From the NCBI GenBank assembly GCA_964016885.1, contig OZ024749.1, positions 18,662,001 through 18,726,000 on the forward strand: 64,000 bases of DNA, given 5' to 3'. This document shows, piece by piece, positions 3,020-52,890 of this stretch. The first letter of the stretch is position 1. Every line of letters starts with the position of its first letter. Under the pieces are notes generated by a model. It was not told the DNA's origin and searched no databases. It saw only the letters and a program-made list of their open reading frames with translations. Source of the stretch: Eledone cirrhosa (taxonomy: Eukaryota). The position numbers were made by a program, and so were the translations under genes.

Positions 3020-4200
3020 ATTTATTACATAATCACACACAAGAAGAAATTGCTTAATAACAGAATTGAACGAACATTATTCTGCCGTCACCGAACTAAA
3101 ACCCTTTTTCCCACTACAAGCTGAATATTACATAAACGAGAGACATCCTCCCAACTATACAAATCCTCAATCTAGTTAGAAAAATATAAAAACAATCTCT
3201 TCTCAACATATATATGTACTATTAATAACCTTAAATTATCACACTAATAATGGATAAATATGCTGGTGAGAATAGGTGCGAATATGCTATAATGAATGTG
3301 TCTAAAAGCGACCATATGTATGTATATATGTGAAAATGTATACAAATAAGTAAATAAGTGGGTGAGTGTATATATATATATATATGTTTGATGTGTATAA
3401 TTAAATGTATGTGTATTCATGTATATGTGTATTTATATATATATATATATATATACACATGGACAAGAGTATGTATGTATATATGTGTGTGCCTATATGT
3501 GTGTATATGAAGATAAGTAGAGTATGAAAGTGTATATACATGAATGCGTATGTATGTACATATATATATGTATATATATATATATGTACAGGTATATATG
3601 TATGTAGGTATGAGCATGTAAGTATGTGTATGTGAGTGTATGTATTTGTAGAGGTATACATATATGTATGTGTGTGAATGTGTATGTATGTTTTTAAAAA
3701 AAATAAGTATATATACGCATATATTTATGTGTGGGCGAACGGATACGTACACTTGAAAGAAAAATGTAAGTCTGTATATGAATTAAGTGCAAACACAAAA
3801 CCAACCATGCATATCTCTACTATCTCTAATCCTTCGATAGATTTAGAAAAATAACCAATACAACAAACGCCAAATAATGAATATTCTATAAAAATGTCAA
3901 ACTCAACTAACAAAATAACAGATGGGAATCTAATTACCCACTGCTATCAAAAATTTCCATCCACTCCCTTAACTATTCTTCTAACAACTTCACTCCTTCC
4001 TCTTAATATTCTCTATAAAAACCAAACAAGTTCTCAATGATATTATTCTGATGAAATGGTAGTTGAAAATAACATTGAAATATTGAGTGTCTGCATAATT
4101 AATACTTTGTAGATAGCAGCTGTTTTCAGGTTATATAACTATTATTGAAACACGTGTCAATAAATTCCTTTTACTGAACTGTATCCATTTAAATCCTTCT
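3020..4200 (+). mobile_element. Inverted copy of family A 3' end (ORF C-terminus, 3' UTR, hammerhead)
   Basis: Begins with codons for YYIITHKKKLLNNRIERTLFCRH, like the C-terminus of ORF 33212; 3725-4110 mirrors 1-420. Confidence 0.85.
4043..4163 (+). ncRNA. Type I hammerhead ribozyme with long stem II insertion
   Basis: TTATT-CTGATGA-AATGGTAGTT...AACTATTATT-GAAA-CACGTG-TC-AATAA: 5-bp stem I, 10-bp stem II, palindromic stem III, GUC site. Confidence 0.85.
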
Positions 4201-4234
4201 ATATATGTATATATATATGTGTGTATATATATAT

Positions 4235-5235
4235 CCTTTGTTCTGTCCTACGCCATCTTGTTTCTGTGTGTGTGTTGTGTGCTCAGTCTGCGCATGCACC
4301 ACATCCGGGTGTCTGTGTGTGTTTATATTCGTTTATTTATTTGTTTATTTACATGTTACTGGTTGGTTGTTTGTTCTATGTGCGTGTGTGTTTTCATTTT
4401 GTCCTTAATTGTAAGTTGTGATGTTGCTGTTCCACTCATGTTTTCTATTTAATTTTGGTTGTAATTCTTTTATGTTTATTGCCTCTGTGATTTGTCTAAA
4501 CATTGCGTCTTTTCTGTGTGTAGATTCTATTTTTATTTCTATGTTCTCTAATTTACCCTTATATTCTATTTTAGCATGTTGGTAGAGTACAGATGATTCT
4601 TTACTATCTTGAAGGTCTCGCCAGTGTTCATTTATCCGTTCCCCTACACTACGAGCTGTCTCACCTATGTACACTATATTTTTATCTCTACATTGTCCTA
4701 CAGTACATCTTATGCTATATACTACATTTCTAGTTTTACAGTTAATATGGGGGCTTAATTTACAGGTTATACATTTCTTATCTATACAGGGGGGTCTTTG
4801 AAAAGGGTATGTCTTGCTAATAAGTGTTTTTATGGAGGTACCTGGTCTTTCTTCTATCTTAATATTGAGTTTATGTTTATTTAGGGCCCTTCTAAATTTG
4901 TAAGCTAATTCACCTCTAGGGGTTGTATCGATGAACATTACACTCTGGTATTTATTGCTATCATACCATGAGTTTATTCTATTAGCCTTATTCCTAGTTC
5001 TTTCTGTCCTATTCCAAAATTTGCTCCTATACAAGGGGCAGGTCTCATTTGTGTCATTATTTACCATTTTTTCCCATTTGGTTCTGGCTCCTATACACTC
5101 TGATTTTATCTCTCTGATTGTAACCAGAGAACTGCATACGGTGGATGAAGTGTTGTATGTGTCTCTCTAGTTCTTCGGGGCTGCACATGCGGGACACGTT
5201 TCTCATCACCCGTACGAAATCCGCAATCAGTATGT
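4235..5235 (-). mobile_element. PLE family B 3' fragment (Cys linker + GIY-YIG + partial 3' UTR)
   Basis: ORF 4405-5067: CIDKKCITC, NVVYSIRC, YIGETARS, RQITEA..PKLN; near-identical to 44614-45291. Confidence 0.9.
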
Positions 5236-5310
5236 TTATATATATATATGTTTATATATATATATATATATATATATATATATATATATATATATATATA
5301 TAGGGAAAAA

Positions 5311-5737
5311 ATGAAACGAATTTTCATTTCTCACTCTTAGTACGGGTGTTACTTAAATATAAGTATGTATACGTACATACATATATGTATACAGACGTAC
5401 AGTATTATGTATATATATATATACATACATGCACACATATATATTTTGTACGTATGGATTCACCGAACATTTATTATAATGCTCGGTGTGTTTGTAAACA
5501 AACATCCAGAATTAAGCCGTATAGTGTCTAGCAACCATCGTTGCTCATTTGTTCAACACTGACAAAGGAACGCTGTACCAGTTTCAAGCTTATTAGCTAT
5601 CATCAGCAACGTATACCTTCCTGCCAGATGGTTGAACGTCTGAAAGTATATACTTTCCTTATGCACGTATACATTATGCACGTATACATACTTATATTTA
5701 AGTAACAGCCATACTAAGAGTGAGAAATGAAATTTCA
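5311..5737 (-). mobile_element. ORF-less element with terminal inverted repeats and an internal hammerhead
   Basis: ~55-bp inverted ends (CATTTCTCACTCTTAGTA.../...TACTAAGAGTGAGAAATG); same family as 9369-9985. Confidence 0.7.
5570..5612 (-). ncRNA. Minimal type I hammerhead ribozyme
   Basis: Minus strand ACGTTG-CTGATGA-T-AGC-TAATAA-GCT-T-GAAA-CTGG-TA-CAGCGT. Confidence 0.85.
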
Positions 5738-5807
5738 ATATATGTAGATATATATATATGTATATATATATGTATATATATAATATATGTATGTATGTAT
5801 ATGTGAA

Positions 5808-50668: not shown

Positions 50669-50919
50669 ACTCTTTTACTCTTTTACCTGTTTCAGCCATC
50701 CGGCTGAGGCCATGCTGGGGCACCGCCCTTGTTGCTACACATTTTATCTCCAGCCTGTATAGGATGGCCACTGGTGTAGGAGGGAGTTTGTTGCTGCTGC
50801 CCTTAGGTTTCCCTCGTGTCTTGCTGTGGGCTCATCCGGGATCCTGGATAACAAGGTGTCGAGATGTTTCTTAAAGACATCCACCTCCACGTCATGCAAG
50901 TCTCGCAGATGCCTCGGCA
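50669..50919 (-). mobile_element. 251-bp 3' fragment of the LINE at 53014-56874
   Basis: Reverse complement of 56624-56874 with a few substitutions. Confidence 0.9.
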
Positions 50920-51504
50920 TATATATATATATATATATATATATATATATATATATATATATATATATATATATACATATACATATATATACATATATAT
51001 ATACATATACATATACATATATATATATATATATATACATATATATACATATATATATATATATACATATACATATATATATATATATATATACATATAT
51101 ATACATATATATATATATATATATATATATATATATACATATATATATATATATATATATATATACACATATATATATATATATATACATATATATATAT
51201 ATACTTATATATACATATATATATATATATATACATATATATACATATATATATATATATATATATATATATAGTTATACATATATATATATATATATAT
51301 ATATATATATATATATATATATATATATATATATTGTTATACATATATATACATATATATATATATATATATATATATATATATATATATATATATATAT
51401 ATTGTTATACATATATATACATACATATATATATATATATATATATATATATATATATATATATATATATATATATATATATATATATATATATACATAT
51501 ATAT

Positions 51505-52110
51505 GGTGGCTGCCAACTCGTTTTCGAGTATGGCCACTACTTTATATCCATGTAGGAGAACTCCTACCGATGCACTGAACGAATGTGACTTTAGTCCAAC
51601 CAACGACTTGAAAATTCTGGTACAAACACTACACTTATGACAATTATTGACCCATAGTGCTAGGCCCATGGTACCATGTGACGACAAGTGCAGAGAGATC
51701 TCCAGATATAAAGCAATGCCTGTGCCGTGAAGCTTTTATAATGAGCAAAGGCACTGCACAAAGCCAGTCCCACTCTCTTAACCAAGATGATATTTACCAA
51801 AAAGAAGAACAAGTCAACATCATTGGATACCATCAGAGTTGCAGGTGTTATATCAGAGTTTTCCTTCTCCTAGAATTCTGCCTTGACAAAGGCTAAGGGG
51901 TCATCTCTCCCGGTGATTTTGGATGGCCATTGACTCTTAAGAGCTCCTTTGCCCTTTGACAGGTTTTGTTTTTAGTCCTGCAGGATGTCCAAAGTCACCC
52001 TCCTCACCAAGAAACCTTAGTGGGGTTGCCAGTTTAGTCGCCAACGACCCGACCATGGGACAGGTTGTACTGGAATACATGTTACCAGTAGCACCAAGTG
52101 GTGACCTGAC
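51505..52110 (-). mobile_element. Short non-autonomous LINE derivative (structured 5' region + C2H2-finger 3' end, RTE-like)
   Basis: [19 protein letters not shown] on the minus strand near the 3' end; flanked by (TA)n. Confidence 0.5.
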
Positions 52111-52147
52111 ATATATATATATATATATATATATATAGATAGATAGA

Positions 52148-52890
52148 TATGTCGGTCAAACTGGAAATGCACTATCGGAACGTGCACGGGTACACCGTCA
52201 ACAAATCAGAGACCCAAATGTCCGTCAGATACCCCTAAGCGGCCACCTGGCAACATGTGGTCAGGGAATATTTATAATATTCCCATTCTACAAATTGCAC
52301 AGCCCAAGTGAAATCAAGAGAAAAATCAAAGAAAATAATTTTATTGATAAATTCAAACCCAAGCTAAATGAACAATAATAACGCCTAGGGGTATTACTTC
52401 TACTACCACTATGACCACGACCACTAACAACAACAACAATAATAATAATAATAAAAGTGATGTTGATGGTGATGATTAATAGAAAATGCTATTTTCATCA
52501 TTTCAAAAAGCAAAACAATTGATACGTTGGATATGACTATTGGTCGCTAGCATGCTCAACCAGCCGTGACGCTTAAACCAATCAGCTGTAGTAATTCAGT
52601 GAAACTACACACTGATTGGTCGAAATACAGTTTACAGGGTTTTGCATTCTGGAGCCACTTTTCTCTGTATAAAATGTATAAAAGGTAGGAAATTTACCCA
52701 TCTCATTACAGTTGAAAATTGCAAACTCGACTGTCACCACATATCATGAACCTGAAGATTGCGAGAGCATGAAAGTACTTGTTCAATTAACACTTAGAAT
52801 TTAATATTCTATCATACTATTTCATTATAATACCATTATATATATTTTAAAGGATTGTAAATAAAACGAGTAAATCAGACAAAGTTGGAA
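52148..52890 (+). mobile_element. PLE 3' fragment of another family (GIY-YIG half 52148-52378, 3' UTR, hammerhead); not in the ORF track
   Basis: Manual translation YVGQTGNALSERARVHRQQIRDP..IPLSGHL..FPFYK..KENNFIDKFKPKLN. Confidence 0.85.
52747..52785 (+). ncRNA. Minimal type I hammerhead ribozyme
   Basis: TGAAC-CTGAAGA-T-TGC-GAGA-GCA-T-GAAA-GTAC-TT-GTTCA. Confidence 0.85.

What the first reader, a model, noticed from the sequence alone, without database searches (positions are those of the whole stretch)
4043..52785. Dense hammerhead collection: about 25 type I motifs from about 14 families in 64 kb
Seen: full core and stems I-III, folded by hand, at 4043, 5570, 6262, 9666, 11636, 12225, 12541, 13255, 13366, 13851, 14819, 16864, 21618, 22554, 24153, 27915, 30627, 32607, 35868, 36029, 36295, 40837, 41584, 50436, 52747. 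Most have a palindromic stem III (CACGTG, CTAG, TGATCA, CCGG, CAATTG, CAGCTG, TGCGCA, GTAC). Known: Penelope pseudo-LTRs carry minimal hammerheads with palindromic stem III, proposed to cleave as dimers. Inference: most TA-flanked non-coding inserts here are ribozyme-bearing PLE ends or PLE passengers, and the family-specific palindromes could restrict dimer partners.
Basis: partly seen in the sequence, partly recalled or inferred. Interest (0 to 1): 0.75.

Follow-up and report, generated by a model that had tools for sequence, protein, structure and literature searches.

The report
Hammerhead-laden ends of Penelope jumping genes
This stretch is crowded with the ends of Penelope-type jumping genes, each carrying a predicted self-cutting hammerhead RNA that likely works in pairs; the kind is known, but this genome holds an estimated 300,000 such motifs, some with an oversized arm or scrambled part order.

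Summary
Observation confirmed. A descriptor scan recovers 23 of 25 sites with full core and three stems; the other two are decayed copies. 21 score >=24 against 0.1 in shuffles. They form 15 families. Ten sit in pseudo-LTRs of Penelope-like elements (six Hydra clade, four Neptune-like), four in non-coding tandem units (retrozyme-like), one is unassigned. The density is explained: the motif lies 40-230 nt inside the element end, insertions are mostly head-to-head pairs with two fixed ends (36 of 38), and they target (TA)n. It is genome-wide: 109 motifs in 990 kb sampled elsewhere, about 3x10^5 in 3.0 Gb; the window is threefold richer. Stem III self-complementarity is real, but palindromes are shared between families, so stem I must help set partners. 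Only 17 of 42 TA-flanked segments carry a listed motif. The scan noted the community, the two ends and the scrambled form before on other DNA of this genome. No cleavage or RNA data.

The parts
4043..4163 (+). Type I hammerhead, family A, 92-nt domain II, stem III ACACGTGT, predicted cut after 4158; inverted arm of the Hydra PLE at 379-2584
   Evidence: (second copy 322 nt after the ORF end in L245)
379..2584 (-). Hydra-clade PLE ORF (frameshifted), parent of family A
5570..5612 (-). Hammerhead, family B (non-coding unit of about 410 nt plus a TA tract)
6262..6305 (-). Decayed hammerhead, family C (stem I broken)
6915..8920 (+).
9057..9246 (.).
9666..9708 (+). Hammerhead, family B, stem III ACTAGT
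11636..11693 (-). Hammerhead, family D, ATGATCAT; PLE-type two ends, no parent ORF found
11905..12737 (+). 316-nt tandem (2.4 units, inverted start) with U3-A8 hammerheads at 12242-12285 and 12558-12601, family E; retrozyme-like
13183..13475 (.). Head-to-head pair of U3-A8 hammerheads (13255-13292 minus, 13366-13403 plus), family F, ACCGGT; 3' end of a Neptune-like PLE
13851..14863 (.). Head-to-head pair of family C hammerheads (13851-13895 minus, 14819-14863 plus) around a GIY-YIG fragment at 14010-14507
16864..16929 (+). Hammerhead, family G, ATATGTAT; a sister subfamily lies about 90 nt after a GIY-YIG ORF in L250
21433..22388 (-). 742-nt non-coding unit, 1.3 copies, with hammerhead at 21618-21739 (family H, 95-nt three-way domain II, ACAATTGT)
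22515..24401 (.). 1.7-kb palindrome with CCGAAGA-core hammerheads at 22554-22600 (minus) and 24153-24200 (plus), family I; end of a Hydra PLE (832-aa ORF in L250)
27920..27965 (+). Hammerhead, family J; end of a Hydra PLE (two motifs 4950 nt apart flank an 844-aa ORF in L248)
30627..30697 (+). Hammerhead, family K, ATGCGCAT; about 1 kb after a Hydra ORF in L081, L257, L269
32298..32385 (-).
32607..32718 (-). Hammerhead, family L, 85-nt domain II, 501 nt after the Hydra ORF end
33212..35512 (-). Open 766-aa Hydra-clade ORF (RWK, DKT, CxCx5C, C-terminal nuclease), 5'-truncated, with an 87-nt inverted arm at 35513-35599
35868..36070 (.). Head-to-head pair of family C hammerheads (35868-35910 minus, 36029-36070 plus)
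36244..41149 (-). Full-length Hydra PLE: pLTRs 36258-36560 and 40800-41101 with family M hammerheads at 36295-36335 and 40837-40877 (decayed stem I), broken ORF 38112-40608, short inverted arm 41096-41149
41584..41708 (+). Hammerhead, family H2 (about 708-nt non-coding unit), 95-nt three-way domain II
43239..45291 (+). Canonical PLE ORF (RT, Cx-CxxC linker, GIY-YIG), parent of family C
50439..50499 (-). Hammerhead, family K, truncated just upstream of the core
52747..52785 (+). Hammerhead, family N, AGTACT; end of a 4.2-kb Neptune-like PLE (L249)

Best explanation
The motifs are type I hammerhead folds carried in the terminal repeats of many Penelope-like retroelement families and of non-coding repeats that likely borrow their enzyme, and they pile up because each insertion into a TA run copies the hammerhead-bearing end first, often twice. 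Shown: motif anatomy, family structure, links to PLE ORFs, TA flanks, head-to-head pairs with one short and one long end. Inferred from a published PLE reaction: the enzyme cuts both target strands and starts reverse transcription at two internal sites downstream of the hammerhead cut site, so even badly truncated copies keep the motif. Predicted, untested: single motifs are nearly inactive because stem III cannot close, while two same-family motifs on one transcript pair through stem III, swap stem I and cut out a unit-length RNA that may be circularised.
For: 23 of 25 sites recovered, 21 at score >=24 against 0.1 in shuffles. Two motifs flank whole ORFs in L248, L249, L250 and window 36244-41149. 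Family L motif lies about 500 nt after the Hydra ORF end in the window and in most of the 20 loci fetched. Hydra hallmarks present as defined in PMC8557442. Ends cluster at two distances per family (L 54/199, G 48/136, K 45/131, D 50/200, J 50/141, I 41/208 nt); 36 of 38 inverted pairs differ by 50 nt or more, as the two start sites of PMC11167929 predict. Motif count rises with TA-array count (rho 0.31, p 0.002; window 43 arrays per 10 kb against 20). Compensatory changes in stems I and II with an invariant core (6 of 12 pairs). Monomer stem III hairpins cost +0.4 to +6.0 kcal/mol; homodimer duplexes gain 1.1 to 14.7 in 14 of 15 families.
Against: No cleavage or RNA evidence for any motif. 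Family C (5 of the 25 sites) has a non-palindromic stem III whose homodimer duplex is unfavourable (+2.4); L is weak (-1.1). Family D has no parent ORF in the loci examined; the F and G links rest on one clear locus each. In vitro, hammerhead mutants did not reduce PLE insertion and cleavage needed the protein (PMC11167929); 8 of 9 Xenopus retrozyme dimers did not cleave (bioRxiv 10.64898/2026.07.22.740005); PLE motifs cleaved weakly even as dimers (PMC4209133). Head-to-head pairs are on opposite strands and cannot dimerise in one transcript. The covariation alignments were picked from scanner hits, so they lean towards the structure.
Confidence: 0.82

Rival explanations
1. The motifs are real PLE parts but act mainly as folded signals (for enzyme binding, promoter or start-site choice), or as slow ribozymes that the element does not need for jumping.
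For: Reverse transcription runs across the scissile bond in every intact copy, so an uncleaved RNA is a sufficient template; hammerhead mutants inserted normally in vitro and no RNA ends mapped to the cut site (PMC11167929). Family C thrives without a palindrome.
Against: Catalytic core letters stay invariant while stems covary; the U3-A8 swap keeps the core pair in 20 of 109 sampled motifs; self-complementarity of loop 3 is far above chance and makes sense mainly for dimers.
Confidence: 0.3
2. The palindromes are a selected partner code: families diverged in stem III so that they do not cleave with each other or within host transcripts.
For: 1 of 105 window family pairs and 9 of 378 pairs among 28 families match at stem III; only 2 of 378 also match both stem I directions.
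Against: Palindromes are shared more, not less, than chance: 23 of 300 pairs identical against 1.6-2.0% expected, ACAATTGT in 6 clusters. Low cross-compatibility follows from simple divergence, and the cis partner in a tandem is always the same family.
Confidence: 0.15
3. The motifs are chance folds in AT-rich, repeat-rich DNA.
For: Loose descriptors give many shuffled hits (15 per window), and satellites produce false hits (L044, L084).
Against: 21 against 0.1 at score >=24; conserved in repeat families with about 900-1900 first-look candidates each for 9 of 11 families searched; fixed position relative to element ends.
Confidence: 0.01

Closest known systems
PLE pseudo-LTR minimal hammerheads (Cervera and de la Pena 2014, PMC4209133; parts 1-2 of 4 read)
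   Same: Type I order, short palindromic stem III, extra base or mismatch at the foot of stem II, U3-A8 core variant, many divergent families per genome, mostly dispersed single copies.
   Different: Counts there are 2,000-9,000 per genome; here about 3x10^5 by a looser descriptor (about 1.4x10^5 if domain II is limited to 25 nt). Domain II of 85-116 nt is not described in the parts read.
Hydra clade PLEs (Craig et al. 2021, PMC8557442; sections 6, 11, 12, passages, supplement part 2 and search hits read)
   Same: RWK, DKT, CxCx5C linker, C-terminal nuclease without CCHH, (TA)n targets, hammerhead in the 3' end, inverted copies and tails.
   Different: Their File S2 lists 25 Hydra motifs, all with a short hairpin domain II; families A and L here carry 85-92 nt. 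Tails here are about 55-170 nt, not 30-40. Elements reach 4.2-5 kb against under 3 kb.
Metazoan non-LTR retrozymes (PMC7229834, parts 2-3 of 6 read; bioRxiv 10.64898/2026.07.22.740005, parts 1-3 of 5 read)
   Same: Non-coding tandem units with one type I hammerhead per unit (families B, E, H, H2).
   Different: Units of 316-742 nt with PLE-type ends in (TA)n; circular RNA not shown here. The axolotl's 126,247 motifs lie in 28 Gb; this genome is 3.0 Gb.
Poseidon PLE of Anolis, internal initiation (Frangieh et al. 2024, PMC11167929; parts 1-2 of 4 read)
   Same: Two fixed start sites downstream of the hammerhead, both target strands primed, AT-rich target.
   Different: Here the two ends lie further apart and are seen in at least eight families, nearly always one on each arm.
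Type-SGC hammerheads, HRIMA-1 (Eckert et al. 2023, PMC10085705; passages read)
   Same: Block order cleavage site, GAAA, CUGANGA, with covarying stems I and III (window 32298-32385).
   Different: Reported from metatranscriptomes, none in genomes of known organisms; here genomic, with only one conventional stem II pair in the window's family and a K-turn-like bend in stem III (K-turn reading from recall and an earlier scan note).

Membership tests
Type I hammerhead ribozyme | Core CUGANGA (or U3-A8), GAAA, A15.1-U16.1, NUH | tested here: met
   All 25 sites; 19 canonical, 4 U3-A8, 2 with U4C
Type I hammerhead ribozyme | Stems I, II, III in C-G-S order, with covariation | tested here: met
   23 of 25 sites; covariation in families B and H
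Type I hammerhead ribozyme | Loop I-loop II tertiary contact of canonical motifs | not tested
   Not examined; PLE-type motifs usually lack it (PMC7761336 passages)
Type I hammerhead ribozyme | Site-specific self-cleavage | not testable with these tools
   Needs a bench assay or raw RNA reads
PLE-type dimeric hammerhead | Stem III self-complementary and unstable as a monomer | tested here: met
   12 of 15 window families perfect, G-U or one unpaired centre; not met by C, L and (bulged) H2
Hydra clade PLE | RWK and DKT motifs in the RT region | tested here: met
   Window 33212 RWK/DKT; L248 RWR/DKT; L250 RWS/DKT
Hydra clade PLE | CxCx5C linker, C-terminal nuclease without CCHH, with CxxC and CxH | tested here: met
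   All three full ORFs
Hydra clade PLE | (TA)n insertion and hammerhead in the 3' end | tested here: met
Hydra clade PLE | Placement in the RT phylogeny | not tested
   No tree built
Neptune/Nematis-type PLE | RT, CX2-5CxxC linker, C-terminal GIY-YIG | tested here: met
   L246, L229, window 43239-45291
Neptune/Nematis-type PLE | Clade placement by phylogeny | not tested
   Neptune and Nematis not separated; window family C has DKS, not DKG
Non-LTR retrozyme | Non-coding tandem units, one hammerhead each | tested here: met
   E 316, H 742, H2 about 708 nt, longest Met-started ORFs 28, 37 and 91 aa; B by spacing only
Non-LTR retrozyme | Expressed as circular RNA | not testable with these tools
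   Needs RNA data
Type-SGC hammerhead | Blocks in S-G-C order with covarying stems I and III | tested here: met
   16 of 22 pairs change on both sides in 12 copies, 0 of 500 shuffles
Type-SGC hammerhead | Conventional stem II | tested here: inconclusive
   One pair in the window's family (9 of 12 rows paired); up to 4 pairs in L126 by eye

The most novel reading that the evidence does not exclude
This genome carries the largest hammerhead load yet counted (about 3x10^5 motifs, over 50 families), including active ribozymes of two architectures not described from animal genomes: type I motifs whose domain II is an 85-116-nt folded module, and scrambled S-G-C motifs. Dimer dependence through stems I and III would keep the lone copies silent inside host transcripts while letting each family cut only its own tandem RNA.
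Probability: 0.25. Interest if true: 0.78.

Novelty: new variant of a known kind. Interest (0 to 1): 0.5.

Why it matters
The role of PLE hammerheads is an open question. This genome offers dozens of young families, several with intact ORFs between two motifs, so cleavage, protein assistance and partner choice can be tested across natural variants. About one motif per 10 kb means most long host transcripts would contain several, which makes their inactivity as monomers a real constraint. None reaches an Rfam threshold, so standard annotation misses them all. The oversized domain II and scrambled forms widen the descriptors needed to find hammerheads.

Tried and rejected
Rfam: no hit at gathering score; the 150 best of 456 E-value hits shown were microRNA-type hairpins and included no hammerhead family, 306 were not shown. 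First strict descriptors found only 7 and 17 sites because they capped domain II; a one-mismatch core gave 39 hits against 15 in shuffles and was dropped. An any-order scan that demanded three stem II pairs found no scrambled motif; dropping that demand found them, so one search was a false negative. Proximity of single motifs to PLE ORFs was weak (16 of 94 same strand, 11 opposite) because most copies are truncated; links were then made per family. An alignment-based end measure was spoiled by TA-TA matches and replaced by distance to the first dinucleotide run. Constrained dimer folding crashed; only stem III duplex energies were computed. One search had stems I and III one column off; one search is the corrected count. 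Pfam gave no family for the Hydra ORFs. The genome search with family F found nothing, as common words are skipped. RNA: no RNA holder listed; contigs of four runs of unknown kind show the head-to-tail junction of the 742-nt unit but cannot show expression or ends. Four 12-letter scrambled-core motifs were absent from the Craig supplement text, where line breaks may hide them; the earlier notes' Naiad link stays untested. ARAGORN found no tRNA. Lunse, Weinberg and Breaker 2017 (PMC5785218), whose title reports dimer cleavage of PLE hammerheads, is not held; only its title was seen, and it may already cover partner choice or long stem II variants.
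Full report
Observation. I wrote a type I hammerhead descriptor and scored stems I-III. Sites 6262 and 40837 keep the core but have lost stem I; they are decayed copies of families intact nearby. At score 24 or more the window has 21 motifs; 100 dinucleotide shuffles in 200-nt blocks gave a mean of 0.1 and a maximum of 2. The score threshold is my own choice. Rfam reports nothing at gathering score. BLAST clustering gives 15 families.

What carries them. The window (G000:C9:18662001-18726000; genome 3.0 Gb) holds several Penelope-like ORFs. 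The open 766-aa frame at 33212-35512 and two full ORFs fetched from elsewhere show the Hydra-clade marks RWK-like, DKT, CxCx5C, CxxC and CxH listed in PMC8557442. Six families are ends of Hydra elements: A, I and J (two motifs flanking 832- and 844-aa ORFs), K (three loci), L and M (both pLTRs lie in the window). Four are ends of canonical elements with a GIY-YIG domain: C (4 of 12 copies 201-317 nt after the ORF), N (4.2-kb unit), F and G (one clear locus each). Four lie in non-coding tandem units: E 316 nt, H 742 nt, H2 about 708 nt, and B about 410 nt plus a TA tract. D has PLE-type ends but no ORF in the loci examined. Of 42 TA-flanked segments of 100 nt or more, 17 carry a listed motif.

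Why so dense. In most families the distance from the predicted cut to the flanking dinucleotide run takes two values, for example 54/199 (L), 48/136 (G), 45/131 (K), 50/200 (D). Of 38 head-to-head pairs with both ends measurable, 36 differ by 50 nt or more; duplicate loci, families B and E, and pairs with a missing end were left out. PMC11167929 showed for a lizard PLE that both target strands are cut and extended and that reverse transcription starts at two internal sites, giving the tail. I infer the same reaction here. The motif is then among the first 250 nt copied, so nearly every event leaves one or two, however truncated. These elements target (TA)n, and motif count tracks TA arrays (rho 0.31, p 0.002).

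Genome-wide load. In 99 evenly placed 10-kb stretches (990 kb, chromosome-scale contigs only) the scan found 115 hits; 6 in a satellite were dropped, leaving 109, against 1-5 per shuffle. That is 1.10 per 10 kb (bootstrap 0.84-1.38), or roughly 2.4-4.0x10^5 in the genome. With domain II limited to 25 nt the count is 48 against 0-1, about 1.4x10^5. The window is about three times the mean and its 120-kb flanks hold 29. All loci then held gave 229 motifs in 57 clusters, some singletons probably chance. Published counts I saw: 126,247 in axolotl, over 6,000 in a coral, about 5,000 in a mussel (PMC7229834), 9,000 in Xenopus (PMC4209133), 235 Rfam loci in giant squid (PMC6962438 passages). Descriptors and assemblies differ, so the comparison is rough. 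Three searches listed no hammerhead survey of such a genome.

Palindromes and dimers. Of 28 families (two or more copies, or in the window), 16 have a perfect palindrome, 3 need G-U pairs, 5 have one unpaired centre and 4 are mismatched; among 126 shuffled hits, scored the same way, 9 were perfect. As monomers all 15 window stems III are unfavourable; as homodimers 14 are favourable, family C is not. This fits the dimer model (PMC4209133; review PMC6765202 passages). Cross-family fit is rare: 1 of 105 pairs in the window, 9 of 378 overall, 2 of which also fit both stem I swaps. But palindromes are reused: 23 of 300 pairs are identical against 1.6-2.0% expected (shared ancestry inflates this). 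So partner restriction is plausible as a by-product of divergence in stems I and III together; I find no sign that palindromes were selected to differ.

Beyond the known. Four window sites have a domain II of 85-95 nt, and another family reaches 99-116 nt. Folding z-scores are -3.5, -4.2, -1.4 and -3.3 for the window sites and down to -7.6 elsewhere. In the H clade the domain is a three-way junction: 98.9% of cells pair and 7 of 29 pairs change on both sides, 6 of them in domain II, though the 6 rows stand for about three lineages. No such arm appears in File S2 of PMC8557442 or in passages of PMC3088659; one search showed no paper on it, and one key paper could not be read. Following earlier scan notes, I also found a scrambled S-G-C motif at 32298-32385, four degenerate copies at 6915-8920, and 11 similar copies picked by eye from 37 raw hits in the 990-kb sample, where shuffles gave 9-16 raw hits. 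In 12 aligned copies 16 of 22 pairs change on both sides, including all 5 of an outer helix that the scan did not select for; stem II is a single pair in this family. PMC10085705 found this order in no genome of a known organism.

Limits. Nothing here shows cleavage or transcription. Published tests are mixed: weak cleavage as dimers, protein dependence, no need for cleavage in insertion, and 8 of 9 frog dimers inactive. Supplements of the bioRxiv preprint were not seen.

Verdict. A real and correctly read feature of a known kind, PLE and retrozyme hammerheads, explained by PLE insertion into TA runs. Its scale and two structural variants lift it above routine: new variant of a known kind, interest 0.5.

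Noticed in passing
window 32298-32385 (-); 6915-8920 (+): Scrambled S-G-C hammerhead family in non-coding tandem units of about 620-770 nt, with a K-turn-like bend; one intact, four degenerate copies.
   Followed up: partly
window 9057-9246; full copies in L143: Very abundant U3-A8 hammerhead family with a 19-nt near-palindromic stem III; 53 3'-half matches in 990 kb, most cut off inside domain II and paired head to head.
   Followed up: partly
window 61905-62205: Head-to-head 3' halves of family A, truncated inside the long domain II.
   Followed up: no
window 28085-28524, 31107-31507, 5804-6021: SINE-like repeat with a tRNA-like head (by eye; ARAGORN finds no tRNA) inserted in (TA)n as head-to-head pairs with 3' ends outward, the same layout as the PLE ends; it may use the PLE enzyme.
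   Followed up: no
L064, L103, L113, L160; L035, L151: Further type I families with a closed 5-6-bp stem III that could work as monomers; missed by the main scan's loop limit, so the census is conservative.
   Followed up: no
window 19102-20917, 45499-49717, 52904-56799: RTE-like and CR1-like LINE copies; CR1 3' ends also at 50687-50918 and 58174-58362, between TA arrays.
   Followed up: no
window 24470-25030: Segment that looks by eye like an LTR followed by a primer-binding site; no match in the 990-kb sample.
   Followed up: no
window 56874-62528: 5.6-kb compound TA/CA microsatellite with small inserts.
   Followed up: no
L011-L021, L028 (G000:C20:3.5-5.2 Mb): Near-identical family H copies recur about every 105 kb, suggesting a large tandem segmental array.
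   Followed up: no
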